A stretch of DNA of 64,000 nt from Naegleria gruberi (Eukaryota), in NCBI GenBank assembly GCA_000004985.1, contig GG738857.1; one strand, 5' to 3'. The notes below the pieces were generated by a model. It saw only the letters and a list, made by a program, of their open reading frames with translations. It did no database searches and was not told the origin of the DNA. A program made the position numbers and the translations under genes. Shown piece after piece: positions 4,525-62,872 of the stretch. Every line of letters starts with the position of its first letter. The first letter of the stretch is position 1.

Positions 4525-6045
4525 ATGATTTCGTCCACTTCTACTACACCAGACCAAATTTCTGGGACCACGGTCCCGGTCTTGAGCAAGACAGAAGTCT
4601 TTGAAGAAGCAACCAATTTTGTAACATTACTTTATACAGAGTTGAAGAAGAAACCAGAAGAAATTGATGAAAGATTGCAAATAATCAAGGCAGAGATTGA
4701 TAGGACTGGAACTTATGTTCATACCAGTGAAGAATTAACCTATGGCTGCAAGGTTGCTTGGAGAAATTCAGTGAGTTGGTAAGTTAAAAGTTTCGAATAA
4801 TGATAGTAACAAGAATTAAAGTATTGGAAAGGTTCACTGGCAAGTATTAGCCGTCCATGACAAGAGACATTGCAAAACAGAGGAAGAAATAGCTCAAGCA
4901 CTAAAGGAACATGCCAAATTTGCCTTCAATGATGGTAATGTGAGATCTAGTGTTACCCTCTTTCGTCAAGTTTCCAATCCAGATGGAAGTGATGAAATTC
5001 GTATTCACAATCCACAAATCATTCGTTATGCAGGTTATAAAAACAATGATGGAAGTGTTTTAGGTGATCCAGATCATGTTGCCTTGACTGAACATGCACT
5101 TTCTCTTGGTTGGAGGAAAGATCAACCAAAATCAAGATTTGACATTCTTCCACTCCTGATTCAAATTGGAGTTCAAGGAAAGACTAAATATTTCGATTTG
5201 GAACCTGAATACACAACTGAGGTTCATCTCGAACATCCAAAATATCCACAAACAAGTGACATGGCTTTACGTTGGCATGGATTGCCAGCTATTACCAATA
5301 TGAGATTCGAATTGGGAGGTGTTTTTTATACTGCAGCTGCATTCAATGGATGGTAAGTTTCTAAGAATTAATTGTTTGAATGAAAACAAAATATTCGAAT
5401 CAAAGGTACATGACAACTGAAATTACAAGAAACTTTTTGGATGATTTTAGATATAATCTCTTAGATGAATTTGGAAGAGTTATTGGTGTGCGGCCTGATT
5501 CAGATGCCGAATCAAAAAAGAATCCATTCTGGAAAGATATTGCCTCTGCCGAATTCAATGTCATGGTTCAACATTCATTCGATAAACAAAATGTCAAGAT
5601 GGTTGATCATCACACTGCAGGTAAACAATTTGTAAAGCATATGCAAAATGAGGAAAAGAAAGGAAGAGAATGTCCTGCACGTTACAGTTGGATTGTTCCA
5701 CCAAGTGCTGCTCACACAAATCCAGTTTTTCACACAAGGATGAAGGAAATTTGGTTGAAACCAACCATTTCTTATCAACCTGAGATTTTTGATGGAAGTT
5801 TTAGAAATGTTATGGCAAGAGGAGAGGTTTTACCTTCAGATCCTGATTGGAATGTTAAGGAAAGTGTTCCTTCCACACCAACTCAAAGGAGCAAGGCAAC
5901 CTCAAGTCAAAAATCAACGACAGCCAAATCATCCACAAAACAAGTAAGAAGTAATTCTAGTGATAGAGTTCTGGTTAAGATTTTGGCAATTCTTGTGGTC
6001 TTGTTAGCAATCTTATTGGCGTACAATTCTTCACAACACCAATAA
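4525..6045 (+). CDS. Nitric oxide synthase oxygenase-domain protein (NOSoxy-like) with no reductase domain, followed by a Ser/Thr-rich linker and a C-terminal hydrophobic transmembrane tail. Exons 4525-4778, 4822-5352, 5406-6045. Introns 43 and 53 bp.
   Basis: Spliced product contains ...FVTLLYTELKKKPEEIDERLQIIKAEIDRTGTYVHTSEELTYGCKVAWRNSVSCIGKVHWQVLAVHDKRHCKTEEE...NDGNVRSSVTLFRQVSNPDGSDEIRIHNPQIIRYAGYKNNDGSVLGDPDHVALTEHALSLGWRKDQPKSRFDILPLLIQ...[49 protein letters not shown]...VMVQHSFDKQNVKMVDHHTAGKQFVKHMQNE...WIVPPSAAHTNPVFH...YQPEIF. It aligns block by block with the animal and bacterial NOS oxygenase domain (AWRNxxRCIGRIQW, IRYAGYK..DGSxxGDP, RFDxLPLL, VDHH, WIVPP). The heme-thiolate Cys in the WRN..C.G motif is restored only by splicing the 43-bp intron 4779-4821 (TG|gtaagt...aaag|T gives TGT). 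The product ends ...DRVLVKILAILVVLLAILLAYNSSQHQ*. The next gene downstream is on the opposite strand, so no flavodoxin, FAD or NADPH-binding domain follows. Confidence 0.85.
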
Positions 6046-6145: not shown

Positions 6146-9100
6146 TTATCTCTTTGTTAACTTTTTTGGTGGATCAATACTCTTATCAGATTCCTTTCTC
6201 TTTCTGTTGGCAGTATTAGTCGATGGAGATGATGAAGAACTTGCAGCCCTGTTTTGATTGGTATGTTTTGGAGCTGTTGAAGAGCTTGAACTTGCTTGTC
6301 CACTTTTAACAGATTGAACATTCTTTTCAATATTAGAAATTGATGAACTTGTTGCTTTCTTTCTATTTGATGTAGGATTTGATGTAGGGGTGTTTTCAAT
6401 AATTTCTTTTACCTTCTTTTCTTTTTTCACTGGTAACTTATTCAACTCTAACTTTACAATAGGTGATGAGGATGAAGAACTTGATGCTTGTTGTTTCTTA
6501 TTTCCCTTAACTTGTGGTGATTTTTGAGTAGGAGATTTAACCTTCTTATCTGTCAATTTTTTATGTGGAAATTGTCTATTTGCATTCTTTCTTAAACCTC
6601 CACTATATTTGAAAGCATAGATTTGGAATCCACCAATACCATATAATAACATTTGTCTGATAAAGTATTCATCTGAGGAATTGTTTCCTTCCTTGAATGA
6701 TTCATGATCTTTCTTAACAACATCCTTTGATGAAATACCATCGAATAGAACCATATCTGAGACTGGATGAATTCCAATCATATTAGGACCATAGAATGTA
6801 CTGATATTACCTCTTGCAGATGAAACAAAATGAGTTGTTTTTTGTAATTTGTCAACTTCATTACTAAGGAATTTTGATTGAGCAGTTCTAACATTCCACA
6901 ATGAGACATGACCTACATGATTTCTCTTATCAAACTTTTCATTATATAGCTTCTTATACTTTGAAAGAATTTGTTTACCTTCCTTTGTTAGATGTGCCTT
7001 GGTCTCCTCAAGAATAGTCCACAATTCTCTTGGATCTTCAATGCACTTTTTTCTGAATTCTTCAAAGGTTTTAAACATTCTCAATCGATCACTATCACCT
7101 ATTTTACCACAAGTATAATGTGATCTTATCAATGGATTTTCTTCCGTGACATAGGTTAGAAATTCCTTAATTACTTCTTCTTTTTGTTGATAATCATAAC
7201 TTGAATGTAATTCAAAGTAAATGATGGCCTCTGCAAATATGAGATATCTTGCCAATGCGTTATTGTGTCGAACAAAAATAGGTTTCTTATACTCTTCAGC
7301 ATGAATGAAATTATCTTCCATGACATGATAAATTTCCAATTCGAAATGTTCTGCCAATAACATACAAAGTTTCTTCTTCTTTCCAATATTGATAAATATT
7401 TCAGTATCAATACTGACAAATACATAGTTAGGTGCCTTTTCTACCTCATTCATGGCTTCATTTAGGAATGAACGAGCCTTTTCCAAAAATGCATTTTCAA
7501 CCATGATGAAAATTAAATAATCTTGACTTCCATTTTTGGAATGTTTAATACAACAATCATGAACATGTCTCTCTAAAAAGTTTGGAGATGTTTCTTCAAA
7601 ATATTCTGGAAGAGTTGTAATGAAAATTGGAGCAATTCGTTGTCGACTATGACTCTTATTACCACCCATAGTTCCAATTAAGGCATCAGTGGAGAGCAAG
7701 GATTTAAATTTTGCCAGTTTAGTTTCCTTCAATTCCTTTTCATAGGAAACAAGAACTTGTTTTTCATTTCTATCAATTTCCATGAGGACCAGTTGACCTT
7801 TTTGATATAATTTCTTTTGTTCTTCAGATAAACCTGCATCAATACTTTCCTTTTCAACTCTTGTCAAACTAATGCTACTTTTTGGTAATTTTTGAACATT
7901 ACCAAATTTTTCACTGGGTGAAAGAACTTTTGCTCTTTTAAGCTCTCTAATGGTGTTATATTCCTTATCAGGAATAATCATACAACCCTTTCCTGATTTA
8001 CATGCAGGTGATGGATAACGATTTGAAAGACCTAAATGTTCGGCTTTAAGAGGTTTAGTTTTTTCCTTTTTCAAAAGCACTCTCATATCATCAATTAACT
8101 TGAATTTCTCAATTGCTAATTTGAGATATTCTTCAGATTCTAATTGACCTCTAATATGTAAGAGTTCATCTGCACAATTACTCAAATACTCTTTCATTGA
8201 ATTCAAAATTGAGTAAAATATATCAAAACTTCCATAATCTTCAATGCGTTCATTTGGTGAAACAAAATTCATAGAGTGGAAAATATCATCAACAATTTCA
8301 ACTAATTCTCCCTTAAAAGTATTCATTTCTTCTTCCTTAGTTGCTAAATCCTTCTTTTGTTTTGCCATTAATGAATCAATCTTCTTTTCAATAAATTCAA
8401 ACATTTGATTCTTGTACATGTCAATTCTATATCTAATTTTTCTGTTTCTTTCATAGAAATAAGTTGTAAACTCAATCCAATTATCATATTCAATTAATTG
8501 ACTTTGAATATTACAATCTAAGGTTTCGTGAGGTGAAAATGTTTCAATGGGTTCTTCACTCTGTCTCTGTTCAATATTTCTACATTTCTTTTCAGTTCTT
8601 TTAATACTTTTCATCAATGTCTTGACACATGTTGATAATTCAAAGTAAGTTTCCTTGAGAATGGTTTTAATTGCTGCTCTTGCATCTACTGCTGCCTTGA
8701 TTGGAAATTGAGATTTGTAAAGAGTTGCAATTTGTAAAGCATATCTCAATCCCTGAAAAACTAAAAAATTAGTTTCAATAGTCTTTCTCATTTCAATTAT
8801 TTCACCAAGTTGTTTGAAGAATATATTCCATCTCTCCTTATCTGTTTTATGTGGGATTGTTAAATTAGTGGCTCGATTAGCTACTGCAACAACAAAATCA
8901 TACTTTCCAAAGAAATCAACATCCTTCCTCTTGGACTCTTCAATCTTTCCAAGTTGTGAAATATTTTCATTCAAGATCAACATCGAAGAAATCACTCAAA
9001 TTACTCTTAAAATCTGTTAAATATTTTTCATGAAGTTCTGTCAATTCTTTGTATGGATTCTTCTCTTTAGCTATTGTCTGACATAGTGATGTCAAAACAA

Positions 9101-10136
9101 TGGTTGGTGGATTATCAGTATTCTTTTCAAATACCTTGTAGGTCCATAAATCAGGGACACAATCAACACCAACAATTTGTCTTACACTTTCTAAACCCTT
9201 AAGAATGACATTACAATTAGAAATAACCTCTTCAATTAACATGGAAAGAATTTCACTATTATTCTGTTCACCATAACCAGGAATGTCCCATATTGCCACT
9301 TTACCATATCTACTTTTCAAGATTTCACTATTATAACAGAGAACAAATTTGTCAACCATCAAGAGTCTTTCCTTTGATTGAAGTCTTTCCTTCTCAAAGA
9401 CTGACATTACAGCTTTGTCATCTGAAACTTGAAATTCAATTTGTAAATCTCCTTCTTGTTCAAATTTTAAAAGTTCAGCATAACATGTCTTGAGTTCACT
9501 TTGATCGAGACCACAATTAGAAACTGGATTGGATTCTGCTTTTCTAGGTAGAATACATTCTTCTTGTTCATCATTGTAATCATCATCATCTGAACTTTCT
9601 TCATTAGAACCCAATGATGGACTCTCATCAGCAGCAACATCTTGATAATCATCAAGCAATTGATCTTCATTACGATCACTAGAGAGTAAATCAGCAATTA
9701 TCGTATTATCTTCATTCTTCTTTGAGAGACGAATAATTCTATCTACGTACTTCTTAGGTGAGCAATAAACCTTTAATAGACGTAATTTATCAGAATATTT
9801 AATCTCAGTACAAAACAAAGTTTCACCTGAACCAAATTTAGAAGATGCCTTCATTGGATAATCATCTTTTCCAGATAGTATCATATTCAATGTGCTTGTT
9901 TTACCAAATCCAGGTTCTGATAATAAACCTATTGAAATTTCAGGTCCTTTTTCAATCTTTTCATAAATCTTTTCATAATTGTCAAAGGCTTCTTTCACAA
10001 ACTTGTTAGACTGATTCTGCTTTGAAGAAGTTCCAAAATCCTTGACAATTTTATCAAGAAATTGTCTCTTGATTCTCTCTTCTTTAACAACATTGACGTG
10101 GTTAATCTTTGAGTCAGCAGGTGTTTGAGGAATCAT
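6146..10136 (-). CDS. Paralog A of a giant protein family: N-terminal septin/IRG-like P-loop GTPase-type domain with a degenerate G1, then an acidic insert, a helical middle region and a conserved C-terminal domain of unknown function. The coding frame is broken by a 1-nt frameshift near 8966-8996, so this is either a possible pseudogene or a sequencing error.
   Basis: ORF 8967-10136 (LLSEPGFGKTSTLNMILSGKDDYPMKAS..GSGETLFCTEIKYS...VAIWDIPGYGEQN...LSDFFDVDLE*) and ORF 6146-8995 (..DVDFFGKYDFVVAVANRATNLTIPHKTDK...GGNKSHSRQRIAPIFITTLPEYFEE..FLERHVHDCC...RHNNALARYLIFAEAIIYFELHSS...RNHVGHVSLWN...HFVSSARGNISTFYGPNMIGIHPVSDMVLFDG...DEYFIRQMLLYGIGGFQIYAFKY) overlap by 29 nt in different frames. Both segments are collinear with the intact paralog at 10348-13953. 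The 949-aa ORF begins at a GTG, not at an ATG. No plausible GT-AG intron bridges the two frames. Confidence 0.6.
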
Positions 10137-10347
10137 TTTTTTCTTTTTTCAATATTAACAAGCGTTGAGTTTTATGTGAGGTGATGGCAAAGGTTAAGAA
10201 GTGTTGGAGAAGTGAGAAATGACGTGTGGTGCATTTATCATGGTAAATTTGAAATTCAAAATTTAGAAGAGAAATTTGAATCCATGAAGCTTAACAAACA
10301 CGACGAGGTGTAACATTTTAAAAACTCGAATGACATGATGTAAAAAA

Positions 10348-13300
10348 ATGTCAACATCGCTATTGCCAAGTGCCTCCTTTGACCTATTCGATTCTGAATT
10401 ACATAATGTAATTGATGAAGAAAGGGATCGGAAACATATTTTGCAGCAATGTCTACATAAATTAAATGAAAATAATTATGTGACGAAAGCTTTTGCAAAA
10501 TATTCGAATATATTCGAAACTATTGACAAAGGACCTGAAGTTTCTGTTTGTTTATTATCAGAACCTGGATTTGGTAAAACAAGCACATTGAATATGATAC
10601 TATCTGGAAATGACAATTCTCCAATGAAGGCATCCGATAGATTAGGTTCAGGTGAAACTTTAGTCTGTACACAAATTAAATATTCGAAAGACATTCGAGT
10701 TACAAAAGTTTATTGTACAGCTGAAAAGTATGAAGAAAGAATTATGAAATTAATGAAAACAAAAGATTCAGAAGATGAACAAACATCACCAACGCCACTC
10801 ACAGATGGTTTAAGTTTAGTTTCGTCTTCAAGTTTCGAATTTCAAGACGATGATGATGATGAAGAAACTGATTGCGAAGATTCAGCATCAGATGAAGCAA
10901 ATTCACTTTTACTTCCAGAGAAATTAAATGTAGAAACTTCAAGTGTAAGATTAAGTGAAGATCATTTCGTATTTCTTAATGGAAAGGCAGATAGAAATGA
11001 ATTAGAAGAAACATTTACGTTTCAATCTGTTCATGATATTCATAACTATTTTGAAAAGGAAAGAAAAAGAGATGAATGCAATAGAGATGACATTTTAATG
11101 GTTGACAAATATATTTTATACTATCCGTGTGAATTACTTAAAAGTGAATATGGAGAAGTGATATTATGGGATATTCCTGGTTATGGTGAACAAAATTATG
11201 GTGATATTCAAGCTATGCTTGTTGAAGAAGTTGTTTCTAATTGTAATGTCATCTTAATGGCATTGACAGGTAACAGAAATATCCTATCTTTAAATTGTTC
11301 ATCTAATTTATGGAAATATAAGGCATTTGAAAAAAGAAAAGATAATCCACCTACTATTGTCTTAACTTCAAGATGTCCAATAGAAAATTCAAATCATTAT
11401 TCAGAATTAATCAAATGTCATAATTCCTATATTAGGGAATTTAAAGAAAATTTAAGTGATTTTTTCAATGTTGATTTTGAATCTAATCCAAAACCTAAAA
11501 AGAAAGAATTGAAAGAAGAAAATGAAGACGAACCTAAAATAATTGACTTTTTTGGAAAGTATGATTTTGTTGTAACAGTTTCAAATTATGCAACAAATAT
11601 TACAATACCACATTTAACGGATAAAAATAATTGGACTATATTTAAGGATGAATTTTCAAAAATAATTGAAATGAGAAAGAGAATTGAAACTGATTATTCA
11701 ATTTTTAAGGGATTGAGATATGCTTTACAAATTGTAACACTTTACAGAACTCAATTTCCTGTCAATTTTCAAAAATTATGTAAAACAGAGACAGATAAAA
11801 TTGCAGATGAAACTTTAAAAACTTTACTACAATATATTGAAACTTTGGAATCAAATATTCAAAGAGCAATTTCAAGAGGTGAAAAATTAGAGAAGAAAAT
11901 TGAAAATTCTTTCAGTTTTGGAAATGAAAATTCATTGACTGATAAAATTCAGAGAAGATTATTCGAATCACATACAAGAGATGTCATGATTGCTTACTAT
12001 AGTGAAAGAATGAAAAAAATCAGTACAAGAATTGAAATGTTCAGAATTCAATTACATTTTCTATTGGAAACTAAAATTTTAGCAGCACAAAGTCATGAAA
12101 AATGTTTTGATTTTACAAATTTTAAAAACATGTTGTCAGATCATATTGATGAGATATTCGATTCTTTAAAAGCAATTATTCCAAACGAAATGACAGATGA
12201 TTCTAGAATGAAACTTGATTCGTATCATGAATCTTTTAAATCAATGAAAGGAATTTCAGAACAATCTAAAATTTTATTGAAAACTTTAACTAAATCAGGA
12301 TTCAAAAAAATAACCAAAACAGATGATAAGGAACTTTCATTATATGAAAAAGCAGAGAGAGTGAAAAGAGATTTTAAAAAGAAGAACTTCAAGTCCTATG
12401 AAGATGAAATCAAAATTCCAAGTCTTTCTAATGCCTATATGAATCCTTCTCGTAGAACAGGTAATATTCTAATTCCACTAAAAGAATACGAAACTATTAA
12501 GGAATTGAAAGAAAATTTCATTTTACCATCAGTAGGTGAGAAATTTGAAGAAAATATTGGAAAAATAGAAAAACAATCAAAAAGTGAATTGGAATTGGTA
12601 TATCGTTCAGATGAAATTAGTGGAAATATCATTTCCTTACAAATCGACAAATCACAGAGAAGAATTACAGTTTCGTATAATGAAAGTTTGCAAAAATCAA
12701 TTCAAAGTTTTAAAAAACTATTGACCACTGATTCACTCATTGGAACTAAGGGTGGAAACAAGAGTCATAGCCGACAACGAATTGCTCCAATTTTCATTAC
12801 TGCAGTTCCAGAATATTTCAATGATTTCACTCCAAACTTTTTAGAGAGACATGTTCATGATTGTTGTGTTAAATCAGATGTCAATCATATCATTTTCATT
12901 ATGATTGAGTCAATTTATTTGGAAAAAGCTCAATCATTCCTTAATCAGAATTTAAGTTTGTTGAATAATGAATATTCAAAGAAAAAATTGAATTATGTAT
13001 TTATCAGTATTGATACTGAACTTCCTGTAAATATTGGAAAGAAGAAGAAACTTTGCATGTTGGTGGCAGAACATTTCGAATTGGAAATTTATCATGTCAT
13101 GGAAGATAACATACTTCACGTTGAGGAATATATCAAACCAATCTTTTTCAGACATAACAATGCATTGGCAAGATATCTCATCTATGCAGAGGCCATTCTC
13201 TATTTTGAACTTTATTCAAGCATGGATTACACTCAGAAAAAAGGAATTATTAAGGAATTGCATGATTTTTTCTTGGATGAACCTTTAACGAGACGATACT

Positions 13301-13953
13301 ATTTGGAAAACAAGATTTCAGATTCAGATCCACTCAGGAAATTTAACACAGATGAGAAGATTAGAGAGAAGTATATTCACGATCCGAGACAATTATTATT
13401 TGCTTTTAATTATTTGAAACCTAAACTAAATGAAGATGGATTACAAATCGTTCACCAATATGAGGTGAAATTTAATGAATTCTTTAATAGGAGAGATCAT
13501 GTAGGTCATATTTCATTGTGGAATACTCAAAGTTCTCAATCAAAATCACTGAGCTCATTTATTGACAGCACTCAAAAAACAACTCATTTTGTTTCACCTA
13601 TGAGAGGAAATATCAGTACATTTTATGGACCGAATACGAAAGGAATTCATCCAGTTTCGGATAATGTTCTATTTGATGGGATGGCAGAAACATCACCATC
13701 TCCATTGACTCCTACATCAAAAAGAAGAACTAAGTTCGATATGTTGGAATCTTTTTTATGTGGAAATAGTTTCTCTGATGATTACTTTATTAGGCAAATG
13801 TTATTGCATGGAATTGGTGGATTTCAAATTTATGCTTTTAGATATCTTGCTGGAAACAGAGCTAGAATTAAGGATCGCAAAAAGAATTCGAAACGAAAGG
13901 ATATGGAATCGATCAAAAATGTTTCCCAACAGAAAAAGAAGAAGAATAAATGA
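10348..13953 (+). CDS. Paralog B (intact, 1201 aa, no introns). It has a septin/IRG-like GTPase-type N-domain with S.PGFGKTST in place of G..G.GKS and a WDIPGYG DxxG motif, then an acidic D/E-rich insert, a long helical region, a conserved C-terminal domain of unknown function shared with paralog A, and a basic C-terminal tail.
   Basis: Single 3606-nt ORF starting at an ATG. G1-like LLSEPGFGKTSTLNMILSG and G3-like VILWDIPGYGEQNYGD resemble septin (GESGLGKST / DTPGFGD) and IRG (GETGSGKSS / WDLPGIG) motifs. Blocks in the C-terminal ~420 aa are conserved with paralog A: LIGTKGGNKSHSRQRIAPIFIT, ERHVHDCC, GKKKKLCML.AEHFELEIYHVMEDN, RHNNALARYLI.AEAI.YFEL, HVGH.SLWN, RGNISTFYGPN..GIHPVSD.VLFDG, YFIRQMLL.GIGGFQIYAF.Y. 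It is transcribed divergently from paralog A, with only 211 bp between the two start codons. Confidence 0.75.
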   Translation: MSTSLLPSASFDLFDSELHNVIDEERDRKHILQQCLHKLNENNYVTKAFAKYSNIFETIDKGPEVSVCLLSEPGFGKTSTLNMILSGNDNSPMKASDRLGSGETLVCTQIKYSKDIRVTKVYCTAEKYEERIMKLMKTKDSEDEQTSPTPLTDGLSLVSSSSFEFQDDDDDEETDCEDSASDEANSLLLPEKLNVETSSVRLSEDHFVFLNGKADRNELEETFTFQSVHDIHNYFEKERKRDECNRDDILMVDKYILYYPCELLKSEYGEVILWDIPGYGEQNYGDIQAMLVEEVVSNCNVILMALTGNRNILSLNCSSNLWKYKAFEKRKDNPPTIVLTSRCPIENSNHYSELIKCHNSYIREFKENLSDFFNVDFESNPKPKKKELKEENEDEPKIIDFFGKYDFVVTVSNYATNITIPHLTDKNNWTIFKDEFSKIIEMRKRIETDYSIFKGLRYALQIVTLYRTQFPVNFQKLCKTETDKIADETLKTLLQYIETLESNIQRAISRGEKLEKKIENSFSFGNENSLTDKIQRRLFESHTRDVMIAYYSERMKKISTRIEMFRIQLHFLLETKILAAQSHEKCFDFTNFKNMLSDHIDEIFDSLKAIIPNEMTDDSRMKLDSYHESFKSMKGISEQSKILLKTLTKSGFKKITKTDDKELSLYEKAERVKRDFKKKNFKSYEDEIKIPSLSNAYMNPSRRTGNILIPLKEYETIKELKENFILPSVGEKFEENIGKIEKQSKSELELVYRSDEISGNIISLQIDKSQRRITVSYNESLQKSIQSFKKLLTTDSLIGTKGGNKSHSRQRIAPIFITAVPEYFNDFTPNFLERHVHDCCVKSDVNHIIFIMIESIYLEKAQSFLNQNLSLLNNEYSKKKLNYVFISIDTELPVNIGKKKKLCMLVAEHFELEIYHVMEDNILHVEEYIKPIFFRHNNALARYLIYAEAILYFELYSSMDYTQKKGIIKELHDFFLDEPLTRRYYLENKISDSDPLRKFNTDEKIREKYIHDPRQLLFAFNYLKPKLNEDGLQIVHQYEVKFNEFFNRRDHVGHISLWNTQSSQSKSLSSFIDSTQKTTHFVSPMRGNISTFYGPNTKGIHPVSDNVLFDGMAETSPSPLTPTSKRRTKFDMLESFLCGNSFSDDYFIRQMLLHGIGGFQIYAFRYLAGNRARIKDRKKNSKRKDMESIKNVSQQKKKKNK

Positions 13954-13978
13954 ACAACTTGGTAAACAAAAATGCAAC

Positions 13979-14051
13979 CGCCCCACGTGGGGCTCGAACC
14001 CACGACCGTTGGATTAAAAGTCCAACGCTCTACCGACTGAGCTAGCGGGGC
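13979..14051 (-). tRNA. tRNA-Lys (anticodon UUU), 73 nt, no intron.
   Basis: Minus-strand sequence GCCCCGCTAGCTCAGTCGGTAGAGCGTTGGACTTTTAATCCAACGGTCGTGGGTTCGAGCCCCACGTGGGGCG folds as a cloverleaf. The 7-bp acceptor stem has one G-U pair. The D-arm is GCTC/GAGC, the anticodon stem TTGGA/TCCAA with loop CTTTTAA (anticodon TTT), and the T-arm GTGGG-TTCGAGC-CCCAC. The T loop has the eukaryotic GTTCGAG consensus. The gene lies 26 nt past the stop of paralog B. Confidence 0.9.
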
Positions 14052-14346
14052 TGCTAATGTAAAGTAATTGGTAATGGTTCTTGAGGCTATTGACGAAACT
14101 GTTTATTATGTACCTTTGTAAGTGATGATTACTCTGAAAATACAACTATTTTTGAAAATGTTAATTTGTTGGGATGGGCAGTATAAATAAGATTAGCCTT
14201 AACTGTTCAGATTTATAGTGACCGAGAAGCAACTTGGTAGTGTCAGAAGACCAACAAGCCTAAGCGAGGAATCATTTTTGCGAATGATTGGACTAACTAA
14301 CCTAAATATTATTTCGTTTCTAGAAAATTTTCTTGTTTAATTGAAA

Positions 14347-16488
14347 TTACAAGTCTTCATCACTCTCATCAAGTGTATATTCTTGGATGCCTTGAGGTTT
14401 GTTTTGACTTGGTTCTGTTTGTTGCTCTCTTTCTAAAAAGTGTGGTTCATCTTCTAATTCTTCATCTTCCCCCCCATTGATTGGATCATGATGAGAAATA
14501 ATTGATCTATCTCCATACAAAGCCAAATATTCCTTTCTGTGTCTTCCAAGGAAACAAAAAACAAGCATTAATAAACCAATAATTGTTACCAAGGAAATAA
14601 CACCATATGTAATCATGATTGGATAAAGTCCACGATCTGAAACTAAGGCATTTTCATAGTATTCGCAAATACTTCCACTATATCTATCTTCACATTTACA
14701 CTATTATTATGAATGAATAAATATGAGTTTCAAATCAACTTACTTCATTGTAATCTACGCATGCACCTTTACCTCCACAAACCTTGCCAGTTGTTGAAAT
14801 TGAAGGAACTCCAAAGCAATATGTATGTTCGCATTCATTTCCAAAATATTCAGCCTTACATTTACAAGTATTTTCTGACAAACATTCTCCCCTCTTTACA
14901 CCTCCACAAACACTTGATGAATTAGCTGGTAATCCATAACATTTGTGAACTATTCCGTGATTATGATAAATTGGTGAAATTAATTTTAGCCACTTACTCT
15001 TTAGGTCACTGCAATACTTTCCTTCAAATTTGGCAGTGCATTTCTCACATTTTTCTCCATCAAAATTACCTTTACATTTGCAAATATTCTCTGCAACACA
15101 CTCTCCATTACCACTACACACATCAGAGTCTGTGTTTTTAAAACCATGGCAACTGACAGGAGGCTTGAGTGCAAATTTCAGTAACATGGGATTACTGCTG
15201 TCGGCATGTACCAAAATTGCAAACTCAAAATCTTTATACTTCAATGGTAAGAGCATATAATCCCAATTGCCTTTATCGTCATTATCAGTGTCCTCAATTA
15301 GGGTAAAAACTTTTTCTTTTCCATCCATTCTTTTGACAGAACAGATACCGCCGAGAGTTGTACAAGTTTTGAATACCAAATTACCATTATTGAAAGTTAA
15401 AATATTTTGAGCATCTCCTCCAGTGTAGATAGTATCAACTTCATTAAAAGTATCTCTAACAACTGCAAATGAGATAATATTTCCATCCTTGATATAAAAT
15501 CCTAATCCATCATTAATAAACAAGCTCATTACTGCGTCATTGATTTTTTGGAGCTTGTCATTCAAATGTATGTAGAGAGACTTTTTGTTTCCAATAATAT
15601 TTTTTCCCATAACAGTAGTTTGGTAAGATGGTTTGCCATCGAATAAATTTGAGTACTTTCCATCATCTGAGGTGACAATAGTTTTGAGGCCATCAAAATA
15701 AAACGTAAGGGATGTTCCTTGAACCATTGAATCGGATTGATAAGTAAGGTTTTTTACCCAAGTAATATTCAATGCTAATGGATCCAATTTTCCAATAGAT
15801 AAGACCTCTCCATTTTGGTAAAGGACGTTGACATCTCCTTCATAATCTTTGGAAAATGTAAGAGGGAAATATACTTTGTCTCCTTTCCTTTCAAAATTTT
15901 CTTTAACATTGTAACTTTTGTCGACACTTAACAATCCTTCACTGTTTGCTCCAATGAATAAATTTTTTGTAAGAATTGATGAAAGGGTGTCTACTTCCTT
16001 GATTGATTTAATTGCATTTGCGTTAAAGTTAGCTTTGTATAATCCTTGCTTCCTGTCAGTACCGATGGCACCATCAAAAAGAAGATCATTTTCATTCAAG
16101 AAAATGAGTTGATTCATTTCAGATATTTCTGTGTCACTGATAATATTAGCAGAGTCGTCATTTTTCAAATAAACGAGTCTAACACCCTTATATCCATTAG
16201 TATTCTTTAACAACCATGATTAGTGAATATATTCATTTCAAAACATACTTGATTTGGAGCGTAGTGTGCTTTAAAGTAAACAGTGCTTCCATCGGGTTTA
16301 ACAATATAGTTTTTAAAATCATCTTGATCATTGTCTTCTTGTAAAACTGTAAAATTATCAGTATCTTTTCTTTCTTGTCTGTAAACGTTGTCTGTTGGTG
16401 TTGAAATTGAATAGACGAAACTAATTCCGGCCATCAAATTGACAACCAAAAAAACGGCAATCAACAAACTTGCCAGATTTTTAAACAT
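14347..16488 (-). CDS. Type I membrane protein with a signal peptide, several EGF-like cysteine-rich repeats, one transmembrane helix and an acidic cytoplasmic tail. Exons (minus strand) 16488-16251, 16206-14744, 14700-14347. Introns 44 and 43 bp.
   Basis: Exon 1 MFKNLASLLIAVFLVVNLMAG... is a signal peptide. It joins ...YAPNQ|NTNGYKGVRL... through GTATGT..TTAAAG (16207-16250). The large exon ends with EGF-like modules (CSGNGECVAENICKCKGNFDGEKCEKC, CGGVKRGECLSENTCKCKAEYFGNECE, CGGKGACVDYNE). The last exon follows GTAAGT..AATAG (14701-14743) and encodes CKCEDRYSGSICEYYENALVSDRGLYPIMITYGVISLVTIIGLLMLVFCFLGRHRKEY...DESDEDL*. Confidence 0.7.
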
Positions 16489-17536: not shown

Positions 17537-17647
17537 TGATTTATTGCTTGTCTTTCCGAAGGTACTCATCAATCAATTGTCATCCAATTGCAATTTTCAA
17601 TAAAAAAAATTAACAAATCACCACTCCATCAACAAAACCTGATAGAG

Positions 17648-18983
17648 ATGTCAACTAGAGACGAAATTTTGGATCAAATTGAATCCTTACAAAACCTTCT
17701 TGATGATGGTATCATGGACGAAGAACAATTCTCTGCTGCCAAAGATAAACTCCTCAAGAAATTAGAAGAACTCGAAAATGAAGAAGCTGAAGCCAATCAC
17801 CACAACGATGAAGATGATTATCCACCACGTGGTGCTAGTTCTCGTAATAATAGAGGAGGAGATGATGAAGAAGAAGGTGATCCATACGCAGATGCCTACG
17901 GTGATGAAGATATTGCAGGAGCAGGTGCTGAAGGTGATGATGTTGTTGAATCATACTTGGATACTCACGAAAGATTGTTGGCCACCATGAAGAATACAAA
18001 GGCTAATGAACAAACTAGATGGGGAAAGTCAGGTCAAATTTATGTAAGTATTGAAAAGGTCATTGATATTTATACTTTTTTACTTGTTTTTATATATGTT
18101 GATAATGATAATATTATTATGATTGTTATTGTTGTTCATATTGTTATAACACAACTAATAATGTGTGTATTAATACTTTTTGTATTGAATACATTGAATG
18201 GGTAATATTTATTATTATTATTACTACTACTACTATACTGCTGACGTCAAATTTAATATTTGTTGTTGTTGTTGATGTGCTGTTGTTGTGTTACTGTGTG
18301 TAATTACACTATTGTGTAATGATAATGTAACAATCTATTATTGTAAAATTACATTACAATGAATTCTAACACGTATTTATATTCGAATAGGATGAAAACA
18401 AACTCACTTGGGGTAGTTATTTGGACACTCACGAAAAGGACTCATCCAGCAGAAAGGAAACCAAATTCCGTTCTGGTGCTCAATGGGGTAAAAGTGCTGA
18501 TGTTGTCTATGTAAGTTTCTAACACTATTTAAACAAGTTTCTAATAATTTTAATTACTAATTACTACCACAATTTGTTGTTATCCACTTACAATTTAACA
18601 CAAATGTTCACACACTGCTACTATTGCTATTGTTCATATACTACAAAAAAAAACAGGATGAAACCAAGTTGACATTCGGTTCTTATCTCAAGAGTGAAGA
18701 AGAAAAGAAGAAGAAGATTGAAGAAGAAGAAGCCAAAAAGAAGATGGAAACCATTGATGCTATTAAGAAGAAGAAGGATGGTGAATTCTTAGATCCAAGA
18801 AATGCCAAGTTCAAGCTTGAAGAACTGCAAGGAAAGTTCCCTAAGGGAGTTGATCCAATTAAGAAGGAACTCTACTTGTCTTCTGAAGATTTCAAAAAGC
18901 ACTTTGGCATGACATTGACTGAATATGTTAAATTGGGTGCTTTCCAAAAGAAGAAGCTCAAGAAGCAACTTGATTTGTTCTAA
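17648..18983 (+). CDS. Villin-headpiece (VHP) domain protein with an N-terminal SHOCT-like helix and three copies of a short repeat. Exons 17648-18043, 18391-18510, 18657-18983. Introns 347 and 146 bp.
   Basis: The C-terminus LSSEDFKKHFGMTLTEYVKLGAFQKKKLKKQLDLF* matches the villin headpiece consensus (LSDEDF..VFGMT...LP.WKQ..LKK..GLF). The exons encode ...TRWGKSGQIY | DENKLTWGSYLDTHEK...AQWGKSADVVY | DETKLTFGSYLKSEEEKKKK..., with donors TAT|GTAAGT in the same phase. The N-terminus has GIMDEEQFSAAKDKLLKKLEE. Confidence 0.7.
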
Positions 18984-21856: not shown

Positions 21857-22841
21857 ATGAAAAGTAAAAGGCAACAAGAATATTCTCTGAAGGGAATTCG
21901 AATAATTGTAGTTTTGATGATGGTGATGATAGGTTTCTTCGGAATAATATCTTGTAAGGATGATTTTCGGGAAACAAGTAATGAATTGGCTTTGGAGTTC
22001 TTTCCTCTTGATAAATTGATTATGAAGAGTATTGTATTGGATGAATACAATAATGAACTTGTTTATAATATGGTCAATTTGACGAATAATGATTCCATGA
22101 CAAATGGAACAGATAGTAACAATTCGAGTGGGATTGAAGATAATCTTTTTTGGGTTATTGTCAAGTCAATTTATTTCAATGCATTTGGAAGTGGAGTGTT
22201 TGCTGGTTTGGTGACAATTGCTATCACTGTCATTATTGAAAAGTTTGGACCTCAGGTTGGAGGTGTTATTGGTACGTTGTAAACCAATTAGTTCAATTTT
22301 TTTAAATCAACTTTTAAATCAATAATAGGCACCTTACCAAGTACAATTATTCCAGCAACAATTGGGTTCTCAATTGAGGCAGATAAGAATTACGGAACAG
22401 ATCCAGAATTGAGGAAACACATGCTCATCCAGCAATTCTTTGTGATACCTTTGGCTGTTTTCTGCAATTGTCTCTTTTTGGTTATTTGGAAATATTCGCC
22501 ACACATTATTGATAGGATTAAACTTTTAATTGATAGGAAGAGAGGGAAGAGCAAGCAAATCAATATTGTTGCTTCTCATGAGGCAAGCGTTCAAGAAATG
22601 AATGAGATTCCATTTGAAGAAAACCATGATATACACGATGCAGATGAGGGACATCATCGTCCTTCTGTTGAGCTCCTCACTGCTGCACAAGGCACTGATG
22701 AACATAGTACCACTGAGCTCCAAACAGAAAGCCAACCAAGCAGAAAGTACCTTGTTGGAAAAATGTTTATTGTAATGACATTGTCATTGGTGGTATGGTT
22801 TACATTGGCTATTGTGATTGTGACAGTTACTAAGGTCGAAA
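21857..22841 (+). CDS. Multi-pass membrane protein. Exons 21857-22271 and 22329-22841 (intron 22272-22328, 57 bp, GTACGT..AATAG). The 3' end is lost in the assembly gap.
   Basis: ...FGPQVGGVIG|TLPSTIIPATIGFSIEADKNYGTDPELRKHMLIQQFFVIPLAVFCNCLFLVIWKY... is continuous after splicing and has several hydrophobic helices. The pre-gap part of the ORF-track 1523-aa ORF (22409 onward) belongs to this gene, not to the PPR gene. Confidence 0.5.
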
Positions 22842-23128
22842 NNNNNNNNNNNNNNNNNNNNNNNNNNNNNNNNNNNNNNNNNNNNNNNNNNNNNNNNNNN
22901 NNNNNNNNNNNNNNNNNNNNNNNNNNNNNNNNNNNNNNNNNNNNNNNNNNNNNNNNNNNNNNNNNNNNNNNNNNNNNNNNNNNNNNNNNNNNNNNNNNNN
23001 NNNNNNNNNNNNNNNNNNNNNNNNNNNNNNNNNNNNNNNNNNNNNNNNNNNNNNNNNNNNNNNNNNNNNNNNNNNNNNNNNNNNNNNNNNNNNNNNNNNN
23101 NNNNNNNNNNNNNNNNNNNNNNNNNNNN
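22842..23128. other. Assembly gap (287 N).
   Basis: N run. The length is not a multiple of 3, so frame continuity across it in the ORF track is an artefact. The gap probably arises from the near-identical PPR repeat units. Confidence 0.99.
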
Positions 23129-61018: not shown

Positions 61019-61096
61019 GGTCATTACGTATTTCTAATGGAATCAATACAATTAAACAATTTAATTGATAAAAACAAGATTCAATTATTTCTTGAA

Positions 61097-62782: not shown

Positions 62783-62872
62783 TTTTTTTATATAGAGTTT
62801 ACAATCAAATTTACACACAACCTAGTTCAATATTTGTTTCCTCCTTAAATACATGATAAAAATTGATTCTCT

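What the first reader, a model, noticed from the sequence alone, without database searches (positions are those of the whole stretch)
6146..13953. Head-to-head pair of giant paralogs: degenerate septin/IRG-like GTPase domain fused to a conserved unknown C-terminal domain
Two divergently transcribed genes, about 1330 aa and 1201 aa, lie with their start codons only 211 bp apart (10136 and 10348). They share an architecture. First, an N-terminal TRAFAC-class GTPase-like domain with an atypical P-loop S-E-P-G-F-G-K-T-S-T (Ser in place of the first Gly) and a WDIPGYG G3 motif of the septin/IRG/AIG1 type. Second, a long acidic insert (DDDDDEETDCEDSASDE in one copy, SSDDDDYNDEQEE in the other). Third, a helical middle region. 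Fourth, a ~400-aa C-terminal domain with strongly conserved blocks (GGNKSHSRQRIAPIFIT, ERHVHDCC, RHNNALARYLI.AEAI.YFEL, HVGH.SLWN, RGNISTFYGPN..GIHPVSD.VLFDG, YFIRQMLL.GIGGFQIYAF.Y). I cannot assign this last domain to any known family. The proteins end in basic, NLS-like tails. Tandem or inverted duplication, rapid divergence and a GTPase N-domain are hallmarks of immunity-related GTPase families in animals and plants. A protist family with this fusion is, to my knowledge, undescribed.
Basis: partly seen in the sequence, partly recalled or inferred. Interest (0 to 1): 0.72.

Follow-up and report, generated by a model that had tools for sequence, protein, structure and literature searches.

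The report
Paired GTPase–glycosyltransferase fusion genes in Naegleria
Two back-to-back Naegleria gruberi genes encode large proteins that join a dynamin-type GTPase to a glycosyltransferase domain of the kind phages and trypanosomes use to attach sugars to DNA bases, which hints at sugar-modified DNA, or a GTP-controlled glycosylation switch, in amoebae, Hydra, rotifers and a fungus.

Summary
The window is Naegleria gruberi nuclear DNA. It carries two divergent paralogues, 49% identical overall, whose start codons lie 211 bp apart. The + copy is an intact 1201-aa ORF that is absent from the protein databases searched. The - copy is broken by a 1-nt frameshift into ORFs of 389 and 949 aa, and the public gene model is a chimera.

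The N-domain is a TRAFAC GTPase. Its best match is the dynamin family, not septin or IRG, and that match comes only through the Willaertia orthologue. G1, G2 and G3 are conserved across the family and G4 is lost.

The family is rare but wider than protists: at least 5 copies in N. gruberi, plus Willaertia, Paraphysoderma (a tandem pair), Hydra, Brachionus and Paulinella. Nearly all members have NLS-like basic clusters.

The most likely function is a nuclear, GTPase-regulated glycosyltransferase acting on TET-generated hydroxymethyl-pyrimidines in DNA. A protein substrate is the main rival. An immune role is untested.

The parts
10348..13953 (+). Intact paralogue A: a 1201-aa single-exon ORF with GTPase, helical middle region, GT-A/TAGT-like domain and basic tail. 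It is not annotated in the public N. gruberi protein set.
   Evidence: The public model P0001 splices across this gene.
10495..11487 (+). Paralogue A, N-terminal TRAFAC/dynamin-type GTPase domain (about aa 50-380). It includes an acidic insert between G2 and G3 (FQDDDDDEETDCEDSASDE at 10840-10896).
10558..10581 (+). G1/P-loop SEPGFGKT (aa 71-78).
   Evidence: K77 is invariant in the family.
10645..10659 (+). G2/switch I GSGET (aa 100-104). G100, G102 and T104 are invariant across the family.
11167..11187 (+). G3 WDIPGYG (aa 274-280). D275 and G278 are invariant.
11362..11376 (+). Degenerate G4 position LTSRC (aa 339-343). Only the first residue of (N/T)KxD is kept.
11491..12756 (+). Paralogue A, middle region (aa 382-803). 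It is predicted to be helical and has no assignable family. It ends in a conserved P...IP.KE.E...L motif (P700 and P710 invariant).
12757..13866 (+). Paralogue A, C-terminal GT-A fold glycosyltransferase domain of the TAGT/JGT lineage (aa 804-1173). It has a helical insert of about 110 aa (model residues 136-248).
13030..13131 (+). Putative active-site signature: NIGKKKK (aa 895-901, K in place of the family R), MEDN (918-921, D920 invariant, equivalent to DDD) and VEEY (925-928, E927 invariant, equivalent to EDY/F).
   Evidence: Motif definition is from preprint 10.1101/2023.12.21.572611.
13642..13662 (+). GIHPVSD (aa 1099-1105), a family-specific block. D1105 is a candidate catalytic base; this is inference only.
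13858..13950 (+). Basic NLS-like tail RARIKDRKKNSKRKD...QQKKKKNK.
8967..10136 (-). Paralogue B, ORF 1 (389 aa): GTPase domain with P-loop at 9897-9920, G2 at 9819-9833, G3 at 9270-9290, LTSLC at 9081-9095 and acidic insert at 9558-9596.
8954..8995 (-). Frameshift junction of paralogue B. Frame 1 ends ...DVDLE-TGA at 8967-8969. Homology continues in the next frame from NENISQ (8971 downwards). Removing one base restores a 1330-aa reading frame.
6146..8995 (-). Paralogue B, ORF 2 (949 aa): middle region, GT-A/TAGT-like domain (about 6587-7660; NIGKKKK 7370-7390, MEDN 7310-7321, AEEY 7289-7300, GIHPVSD 6755-6775) and a Ser/Lys-rich tail of about 145 aa ending NRKRKESDKSIDPPKKLTKR (6149-6208).
10137..10347 (.). 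The 211-bp divergent intergenic region, presumed to be a shared promoter. It contains a small palindrome at 10254-10281.

Best explanation
The locus holds two divergently oriented paralogues of a rare eukaryotic protein family. Each member combines four parts:
1. A dynamin-type TRAFAC GTPase domain with a long acidic insert between switch I and G3.
2. A helical middle region of about 420 residues.
3. A C-terminal GT-A-fold glycosyltransferase domain. It belongs to the TET/JBP-associated glycosyltransferase lineage, which contains the kinetoplastid base-J glucosyltransferase and phage 5hmC/5hmU DNA glycosyltransferases.
4. NLS-like basic clusters.

The most likely mechanism has three steps. The protein enters the nucleus. 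The GTPase-plus-helical module dimerises or oligomerises in a nucleotide-dependent way, as large dynamin-like GTPases do, and so controls where and when the enzyme acts. The GT-A domain then transfers a sugar from a nucleotide-sugar donor onto hydroxymethyl-pyrimidines (5hmC/5hmU) that Naegleria's TET-like dioxygenases make in DNA.

Shown here: paralogy, the architecture, the predicted GT-A fold, the affinity to TAGT and phage DNA glycosyltransferases, and conservation of G1-G3 and of the central Asp and Glu of the glycosyltransferase signature.

Inferred: nuclear location, DNA as the acceptor, GTP-dependent assembly and catalytic competence.

My confidence in the domain assignment is about 0.85. 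My confidence that DNA is the substrate is about 0.4.
For: Paralogy and architecture.

The family has the same architecture in N. gruberi (at least 5 copies), Willaertia, Paraphysoderma and Hydra. Homologous C-domain sequences, mostly fragments, also come from Brachionus and Paulinella. Sources: exhaustive profile search and names.

GTPase domain:
- Pfam Dynamin_N scores 43.4 bits (cut-off 27) in the Willaertia orthologue and is hit by 4 of 10 members. MMR_HSR1 is hit by 5 of 10.
- The family profile hits Der/EngA (9e-7), NUG1 (1e-6) and IRG (5e-4) in the PDB.
- K77, G100, G102, T104, D275 and G278 are invariant from amoeba to Hydra.

Glycosyltransferase domain:
- The AF2 model has pLDDT 83.3 and pTM 0.83.
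- The top BFVD hits are phage "TET-Associated Glycosyltransferase" proteins, E=3e-6 to 1e-3 over the full length.
- Pfam TAGT is the only family hit by more than one member (8 of 25, best 1e-6).
- PHROG 842, beta-glucosyl-HMC-alpha-glucosyltransferase, is hit by 6 of 25 members (best 2e-5).
- The R…DDD…EDY/F signature reported for phage GT-A DNA glycosyltransferases and T. cruzi JGT (preprint 10.1101/2023.12.21.572611) aligns with G.GRKRK…DDD…E[EY][YF] in the family.

Location: basic K/R clusters sit at the N or C end of nearly all members (sequences).

Substrate: N. gruberi has TET enzymes that make 5hmC and have minor activity on thymine (PMC4678852).

Constraint: purifying selection is strongest on the GT domain (64% aa identity, dN/dS about 0.3).
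Against: - The two window proteins hit neither Pfam TAGT nor Dynamin_N on their own. The assignment rests on transitive homology and one AF2 model built from 25 sequences.
- The best TAGT score in the full-length scan of family members (27.0 bits) is just under Pfam's cut-off of 27.5.
- In the window copies the signature is K…EDN…EEY. The third Asp and the Arg are substituted, which could weaken metal or donor binding.
- G4 is lost, so guanine specificity is doubtful.
- No TET/JBP gene is among the 25 ORFs of at least 200 aa in the 64-kb window, nor next to the Willaertia or metagenomic orthologues.
- No glycosylated base is known from Naegleria.
- GREB1, the animal protein with a TAGT-related domain, is reported to glycosylate a protein rather than DNA (PMC7968844).
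- One of the two copies carries a frameshift.
Confidence: 0.45

Rival explanations
1. Same architecture, but the acceptor is protein rather than DNA. The enzymes would be GTPase-regulated nuclear or cytoplasmic O-glycosyltransferases, analogous to what has been reported for GREB1. GREB1 also joins an NTPase-type module (a circularly permuted SF2 helicase) to a TAGT-related domain.
For: GREB1 is reported to O-GlcNAcylate ER-alpha, and GREB1-like proteins are said to occur in Naegleria-like Heterolobosea (PMC7968844; PMC6163654). There is no TET/JBP linkage in any locus examined. The active-site signature in the window copies deviates from that of the DNA enzymes.
Against: No family member hits any GREB1 Pfam model. 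The only recurrent hits are TAGT and the phage HMC glucosyltransferase PHROG. The nearest viral structural neighbours are phage TAGT-annotated glycosyltransferases. NLS-like tails fit chromatin as well as protein substrates, so this does not discriminate.
Confidence: 0.25
2. The family would be immunity-related large GTPases, like IRG, GBP or Mx. They would assemble on pathogens or viral factories, and the glycosyltransferase domain would act as the effector, for example by marking foreign DNA or proteins.
For: - Multi-copy family with repeated local duplications: a head-to-head pair here and a tandem pair in Paraphysoderma.
- Patchy phylogenetic distribution.
- Large dynamin-like GTPases are often antimicrobial (established knowledge).
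- TAGT enzymes belong to phage-host DNA conflict systems.
- The family profile has a weak match to IRG (5e-4).
Against: - No PADLOC defence-model hit.
- No sign of positive selection. dN/dS is 0.3-0.6 with saturated dS.
- Willaertia and the closest metagenomic relative have single copies among ordinary housekeeping neighbours.
- No relatives in IMG/VR.
- IIGP and septin Pfam models are not matched at threshold.
- No expression data were available.
Confidence: 0.15
3. The window copies are catalytically dead or decaying. They would be pseudo-enzyme scaffolds, or pseudogenes in the case of the - copy, retained after duplication.
For: Frameshift in the - copy. EDN instead of DDD and K instead of R. 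G4 lost. The + copy is unannotated and the public model is chimeric.
Against: Both halves of the - copy remain completely open for 389 and 949 codons, and the + copy for 1201 codons. The GT domain is the most conserved part (64% identity, dN/dS about 0.3). The same EDN/EEY variant is conserved in the distinct orthologue P0002 at 37% overall identity, which implies selection on that variant. The frameshift is a single base in a Sanger-era assembly and may be an error.
Confidence: 0.12

Closest known systems
TET/JBP-associated glycosyltransferases (Pfam TAGT PF20691): kinetoplastid base-J glucosyltransferase JGT and phage 5hmC/5hmU DNA glycosyltransferases
   Same: GT-A fold. The only recurrent Pfam and PHROG match. 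The nearest structural neighbours in the viral library. A shared R…DDD…E[DE][YF] signature in canonical family members.
   Different: The phage and JGT enzymes are proteins of about 230-310 aa, or proteins without a GTPase. Here the domain sits at the C-terminus of a 1100-1300-aa protein behind a GTPase and a helical region. It carries a helical insert of about 110 aa plus family-specific blocks (H.GH.SLWN, THFVS, GIHPVSD, GVGGFQ). There is no TET/JBP gene linkage. The window copies have K…EDN…EEY.
GREB1 / GREB1L (animal TAGT-related glycosyltransferase fused to a circularly permuted SF2 helicase)
   Same: A large eukaryotic protein that combines an NTPase-type module with a C-terminal TAGT-lineage GT domain.
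   Different: The N-terminal module here is a dynamin-type GTPase, not a cpSF2 helicase. No GREB1 Pfam model is matched.
Dynamin superfamily large GTPases (dynamin, Mx, mitofusin, BDLP)
   Same: A G domain matched by Pfam Dynamin_N in an orthologue. A GSG.T switch-I motif close after the P-loop. A D.PG G3 motif. A long helical region after the G domain.
   Different: G4 (T/N)KxD is lost. A 120-170-aa acidic insert lies between G2 and G3. No recognisable middle, GED or PH domains were detected by sequence. An enzymatic glycosyltransferase domain is fused at the C-terminus, which I do not know from any described dynamin-like protein.
IRG (p47) and septin/AIG1 GTPases
   Same: A WD[IL]PG-type G3 motif and similarity in the P-loop neighbourhood. 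The family profile matches IRG chains at 5e-4. hhalign aligns only the P-loop region.
   Different: The Pfam IIGP score is below its cut-off (12.8 against 24 bits). There is no septin hit. The alignments do not extend beyond the P-loop region.

Membership tests
TAGT (TET-associated glycosyltransferase, PF20691) | Pfam HMM score at or above the gathering cut-off (27.5 bits). | tested here: inconclusive
   The window copies give no hit at E<=1. Among relatives, 8 of 25 hit TAGT and no other GT family. The best E-value is 9.8e-07. In the full-length scan the best score was 27.0 bits, for Paraphysoderma P0011, just under the cut-off.
TAGT (TET-associated glycosyltransferase, PF20691) | GT-A (nucleotide-diphospho-sugar transferase) fold. 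| tested here: met
TAGT (TET-associated glycosyltransferase, PF20691) | Closest structural or profile neighbours are DNA-modifying phage glycosyltransferases rather than generic GT2 or other GT-A families. | tested here: met
   The BFVD top 20 is dominated by [quoted passage not shown] entries. PHROG 842, beta-glucosyl-HMC-alpha-glucosyltransferase, is hit by 6 of 25 members.
TAGT (TET-associated glycosyltransferase, PF20691) | Active-site signature R…DDD…EDY/F, as described for phage GT-A DNA glycosyltransferases and JGT. | tested here: inconclusive
   The signature is present in the Hydra, Paraphysoderma and Willaertia proteins and in metagenomic members (GIGRKRK…DDD…EY/EF). The window copies have GKKKK…EDN…EEY. 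Only the central Asp (D920) and E927 are invariant.
TAGT (TET-associated glycosyltransferase, PF20691) | Genomic association with a TET/JBP dioxygenase. This is the defining context in phages. | tested here: not met
   None of the 25 window ORFs of at least 200 aa, nor the called genes around the Willaertia, Paraphysoderma and metagenomic homologues, carries a TET/JBP domain. TET genes do exist elsewhere in N. gruberi (PMC4678852).
TAGT (TET-associated glycosyltransferase, PF20691) | Transfer of a sugar to 5-hydroxymethyl-pyrimidine in DNA. | not testable with these tools
   This needs biochemistry or nucleoside mass spectrometry.
Dynamin superfamily (Pfam Dynamin_N PF00350) | Pfam HMM at or above the cut-off (27 bits). 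| tested here: inconclusive
   The window copies give no hit. The Willaertia orthologue scores 43.4 bits (E=4.8e-11 for the full protein, 1.5e-12 for the domain alone). In total 4 of 10 members hit at E<=0.5.
Dynamin superfamily (Pfam Dynamin_N PF00350) | G1 GxxxxGK[ST], G2 Thr and G3 DxxG. | tested here: met
   SEPGFGKT has Ser at a position that is A/S/C/G in the family. GSGET has an invariant T104. WDIPG has invariant D275 and G278.
Dynamin superfamily (Pfam Dynamin_N PF00350) | G4 (N/T)KxD guanine-specificity motif. | tested here: not met
   LTSRC and LTSLC in the window copies, and an N followed by non-conserved residues in the other members.
Dynamin superfamily (Pfam Dynamin_N PF00350) | Helical stalk/bundle signalling element and nucleotide-dependent G-domain dimerisation. 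| not tested
The middle-region profile gives only weak matches to helical proteins.
IRG / IIGP (PF05049) | Pfam HMM at or above the cut-off (24 bits), with an alignment spanning the G domain. | tested here: not met
   12.8 bits, E=0.064, over 38 residues around G3 only. The PDB profile hits to IRG cover only the P-loop region. hhalign against Irga6 aligns 34 columns.
Septin (PF00735) | Pfam HMM match and a septin-unique element. | tested here: not met
   No Pfam septin hit in any of 10 members. hhalign against SEPT2 aligns only 31 P-loop columns.
GREB1 family | A circularly permuted SF2 helicase module and GREB1 Pfam domains upstream of the GT domain. | tested here: not met
   No GREB1 or helicase Pfam hit in any full-length member. 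The N-terminal module is a GTPase.

The most novel reading that the evidence does not exclude
These proteins are GTP- or NTP-gated nuclear DNA glycosyltransferases. They would convert TET-generated 5hmC/5hmU into glycosylated, base-J-like bases in Naegleria, and also in Hydra, rotifers, Paulinella and a blastoclad fungus. Sugar-hypermodified nuclear DNA would then exist well outside the kinetoplastids, written by a dynamin-TAGT architecture that has not been described. It might be used to mark or silence foreign or repetitive DNA.
Probability: 0.3. Interest if true: 0.85.

Novelty: new variant of a known kind. Interest (0 to 1): 0.62.

Why it matters
Glycosylated DNA bases in eukaryotes are known only from kinetoplastids (base J). 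The role of the animal TAGT relative GREB1 is still debated. This family is conserved from amoebae to cnidarians. It couples a dynamin-type GTPase to a TAGT-lineage glycosyltransferase and carries nuclear-localisation-like signals. That gives a concrete, testable candidate for DNA or chromatin glycosylation in organisms that have TET enzymes. It would also be the first dynamin-like GTPase I know of that is fused to an enzymatic transferase domain.

On the practical side, the N. gruberi annotation is wrong here. One paralogue is missing and the other is merged with an unrelated EGF-like gene.

Tried and rejected
- Single-sequence searches of the window proteins found nothing useful. Pfam gave no family at E<=1 for the + protein and only sub-threshold chance matches for the - ORFs. 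PHROGs gave only non-significant matches to unannotated families. PADLOC gave nothing. NCBIfam gave only a weak small_GTP hit. PDB gave nothing.
- The word-indexed homologue search performed poorly. It returned 1, 0 and 3 hits. The exhaustive profile search was what opened the family up.
- AF2 on the two-sequence alignment failed, with pLDDT 38. It succeeded only with the 25-sequence alignment.
- The afdb50 fold library was unavailable.
- Viral origin was rejected. There are no relatives in IMG/VR with two pattern sets, no tblastn hit in GenBank phages, and the flanking genes are ordinary Naegleria genes.
- The A5 alignment was too diverse for the locus scan. The metagenome scan gave only 3 short loci.
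- hhalign of the GTPase profile against dynamin-1, Irga6 and SEPT2 aligned only the P-loop and could not discriminate between subfamilies.
- The middle region has no detectable family.
- An intron cannot explain the split of the - copy. The frames overlap by only 29 nt, and the public model's "intron" deletes conserved sequence.
- The paper that defined TAGT (Iyer et al. 2013, NAR 41:7635) and the JGT discovery paper are not in the held library. I therefore could not check whether this GTPase-TAGT architecture was already noted there.

Full report
**What is in the window**

The window is Naegleria gruberi nuclear DNA. The only database protein matching the region is an N. gruberi "predicted protein" (P0001). 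The neighbouring genes are ordinary Naegleria genes: an NO-synthase-like exon, a cyclophilin, a DYW-type PPR protein, a DUF4116 repeat protein, an actin-family protein, a PARG and a kinase.

The + strand carries one uninterrupted 1201-aa ORF at 10348-13953. The - strand carries two ORFs, 8967-10136 (389 aa) and 6146-8995 (949 aa). The two ATGs are 211 bp apart.

The + protein aligns with both - ORFs end to end. BLASTP gives 45% identity with E=5e-94 for the N-terminal third, and 47% identity over 810 aa with E=0.0 for the rest. No third copy lies in the window.

**The frameshift in the - copy**

Frame 1 ends ...FFDVDLE-TGA at 8967-8969. Homology to the + copy resumes in the next frame at NENISQLGKIEESKRKDVDFFGKYDF.

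The overlap of the two frames is only 29 nt, so an intron cannot explain the split. Both halves are otherwise fully open. The frameshift is therefore either an assembly error or a very recent lesion.

**The public annotation is wrong**

P0001 (1662 aa) joins the unrelated EGF-like ORF at 14735-16213 to the - copy. It does so by "splicing" over the entire + gene. It also removes about 136 conserved codons around the frameshift. The + protein itself is not in the 5.8-billion-sequence database. Only a 207-aa fragment from another assembly (P0003) is present.

**Divergence of the pair**

Amino-acid identity is 50% in the N-domain, 37% in the middle region and 64% in the C-domain. Nei-Gojobori dS is about 0.95, which is close to saturation. 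dN/dS is 0.46, 0.64 and 0.31 for the three regions.

This is an old duplication under purifying selection, strongest on the C-domain. It does not demonstrate fast adaptive evolution.

**Finding the family**

Single-sequence searches of the window proteins were essentially blank. Pfam gave nothing at E<=1 for the + protein and only two sub-threshold chance matches for the second - ORF. PADLOC was empty. PHROGs gave only non-significant matches, and the PDB search one non-significant match. The only suggestive hit was NCBIfam small_GTP at E=0.0034.

An exhaustive HMMER search with a profile of the two paralogues against 1.84 billion representatives found 26 proteins at E<=1e-3. The full-length members, 1094-1400 aa with the same architecture, are:
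- three further N. gruberi paralogues: NAEGRDRAFT_49157, _80834 and _74876;
- Willaertia magna KAL9645939;
- the blastoclad fungus Paraphysoderma sedebokerense KAI9136875;
- Hydra vulgaris LOC101240012;
- environmental sequences.

C-domain fragments come from the rotifer Brachionus calyciflorus and from Paulinella micropora. The family is therefore rare and patchy, but it is not restricted to protists.

In Paraphysoderma a second full-length paralogue lies directly upstream of KAI9136875 in the same orientation. It is annotated as two models of 515 and 691 aa. That is an independent local duplication. Willaertia and the closest metagenomic relative have single copies among housekeeping genes.

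**N-terminal domain**

In the nine-sequence full-length alignment, and in the ten-sequence N-domain alignment that adds the - copy, the following positions are invariant:
- the P-loop Lys (K77);
- the GxGxT switch-I motif (G100, G102, T104);
- the DxxG motif (D275, G278).

The first Walker-A position, Ser in the window copies, is A/S/C/G across the family.

The real deviation is G4. Only the first residue of (N/T)KxD survives (LTSRC here, N in most relatives). Guanine specificity is therefore uncertain.

Member-wise Pfam scans give the following:
- Dynamin_N in 4 of 10 members, with the Willaertia orthologue above threshold at 43.4 bits against 27;
- MMR_HSR1 in 5 of 10;
- IIGP only at E=0.064;
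- no septin hit.

The family profile hits TRAFAC GTPases in the PDB: Der/EngA at 9e-7, NUG1 at 1e-6 including the G2 region, and IRG at 5e-4. hhalign against dynamin-1, Irga6 and SEPT2 aligned only the P-loop and does not discriminate.

My conclusion is that this is a genuine TRAFAC GTPase domain, best assigned to the dynamin superfamily. It carries a 120-170-residue acidic insert between G2 and G3.

The following region of about 420 residues has no detectable family. It gives only weak matches to all-helical proteins. It ends in a conserved P...IP.KE.E motif of unknown role.

**C-terminal domain**

An AF2 model from the two-sequence alignment was useless, with pLDDT 38. With a 25-sequence family alignment, the model of aa 804-1173 reached pLDDT 83.3 and pTM 0.83.

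Four lines of evidence then assign the domain:
- **Viral structural neighbours.** Foldseek against viral models puts phage "TET-Associated Glycosyltransferase domain-containing" proteins at the top, with E=3e-6 to 1e-3 over the full length.
- **Profile hits.** TAGT (PF20691) is the only Pfam family hit by more than one member: 8 of 25, best 9.8e-07, and 27.0 bits against a cut-off of 27.5 for the full-length Paraphysoderma protein. PHROG 842, beta-glucosyl-HMC-alpha-glucosyltransferase, is hit by 6 of 25.
- **Active-site signature.** A 2023 preprint reports that phage GT-A DNA glycosyltransferases and T. cruzi JGT share the signature R…DDD…EDY/F (10.1101/2023.12.21.572611). The family has G.GRKRK … [D/E/H/Q]-D-[D/N/S] … E-[E/Y]-[Y/F] at the corresponding β-strand ends. 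The central Asp (D920) and E927 are invariant.

The two window copies, and their nearest orthologue P0002, carry the conservative variant K…EDN…EEY.

The domain also has a helical insert of about 110 residues. It has family-specific C-terminal blocks: H.GH.SLWN, THFVS, GIHPVSD and GVGGFQ.

No GREB1 or helicase models are matched, so the proteins are not GREB1 orthologues. GREB1-like proteins are said to exist in Heterolobosea (PMC7968844).

**How it most likely works**

The following points are shown:
- the architecture is dynamin-type GTPase, helical region, then TAGT-lineage GT-A domain;
- the nucleotide-binding residues and the core acidic residues of the glycosyltransferase are conserved across about a billion years of divergence, my rough estimate for the spread of these taxa;
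- selection is strongest on the GT domain.

The following points are read from sequence and are inferential:
- Almost every member has K/R-rich NLS-like clusters at one end. Examples are KKKKNK and NRKRKESD..PPKKLTKR in the window copies, KKRKKEN…KKKKTRRK in Willaertia, and RKRK or KKRK near the N-terminus of other paralogues and of the Hydra protein.
- N. gruberi encodes TET dioxygenases that make 5hmC and have minor activity on thymine (PMC4678852).

The mechanism I commit to is a nuclear glycosyltransferase that sugar-modifies hydroxymethyl-pyrimidines in DNA. Its recruitment or processivity would be governed by nucleotide-dependent self-assembly of the GTPase and helical module. My confidence in the DNA substrate is about 0.4, and about 0.85 in the domain assignment.

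The main rival is a protein acceptor, as reported for GREB1. It has no direct support: there is no PADLOC hit, no positive-selection signal and no expression data. A decayed or pseudo-enzyme reading is weakened by the conservation of the EDN/EEY variant in a distinct orthologue and by the fully open reading frames.

**Novelty and limits**

I found no paper in the held library that links TAGT to a dynamin-like GTPase. The paper that defined TAGT (Iyer et al. 2013) is not held, so prior mention of this architecture cannot be excluded.

I classify the finding as a new variant of a known kind. The catalytic lineage is known, and the fusion and its phyletic pattern appear to be undescribed.

Key weaknesses:
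- the window proteins reach the TAGT and dynamin assignments only through relatives and one predicted structure;
- the N-terminal and middle regions were not modelled;
- no functional data exist.

Noticed in passing
window 6146-16213: The public N. gruberi gene model P0001 (1662 aa "predicted protein") is a chimera. It joins the EGF-like ORF at 14735-16213 (-) to the - paralogue and treats the whole + gene (10348-13953) as an intron. It also splices out about 136 conserved codons around the frameshift. The + gene is unannotated.
   Followed up: yes
window 8954-8995: A single-base frameshift splits the - paralogue. An in-frame ATG of the downstream frame lies 13 nt before the upstream stop codon. 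I cannot tell whether this is an assembly error, a recent pseudogenisation or a genuinely split gene.
   Followed up: partly
L006 2095-11526 (Paraphysoderma sedebokerense JAHLJZ010000108.1): An independent tandem (head-to-tail) pair of full-length family members, 41-61% identical. The upstream copy is annotated as two separate genes of 515 and 691 aa.
   Followed up: yes
window 22409-26980 (+): A 1523-aa PPR protein with E, E+ and DYW deaminase domains. This is a plant-type RNA-editing factor, known from Naegleria but rare outside plants.
   Followed up: no
window 5380-6045 (+): An ORF matching only the C-terminal part (model positions 235-360) of the nitric-oxide-synthase oxygenase domain (E=5e-42). 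It is presumably one exon of a larger gene, directly downstream of the - paralogue's 3' end.
   Followed up: no
window 17588-18205 (+): A 205-aa ORF with SHOCT and GvpG-like (gas vesicle protein G) matches. These are domains that are mostly bacterial.
   Followed up: no
window 10254-10281: A 10-nt palindrome (ATTCAAAATT / AAATTTGAAT, 8-nt spacer) in the 211-bp divergent intergenic region, about 25 bp to the + gene side of its midpoint. It may be a shared promoter element. Weak evidence.
   Followed up: no
window 8001-14000: G+C content of the gene pair (0.29-0.31) is 3-4 points below most of the window (about 0.33-0.36). The PPR gene region is equally low, so this is not evidence of foreign origin.
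   Followed up: partly
+ protein aa 695-725 (window about 12430-12520) and the equivalent columns of alignment A4: A conserved linker motif, NP....(I/L)P.KE.E....L, with two invariant prolines (P700, P710). It lies between the helical region and the GT domain in all nine full-length sequences aligned in A4, from amoeba to Hydra. Its function is unknown.
   Followed up: no
window 57233-62818: A 1261-aa protein kinase with a right-handed beta-helix region lies next to a poly(ADP-ribose) glycohydrolase gene (61097-62818, - strand).
   Followed up: no
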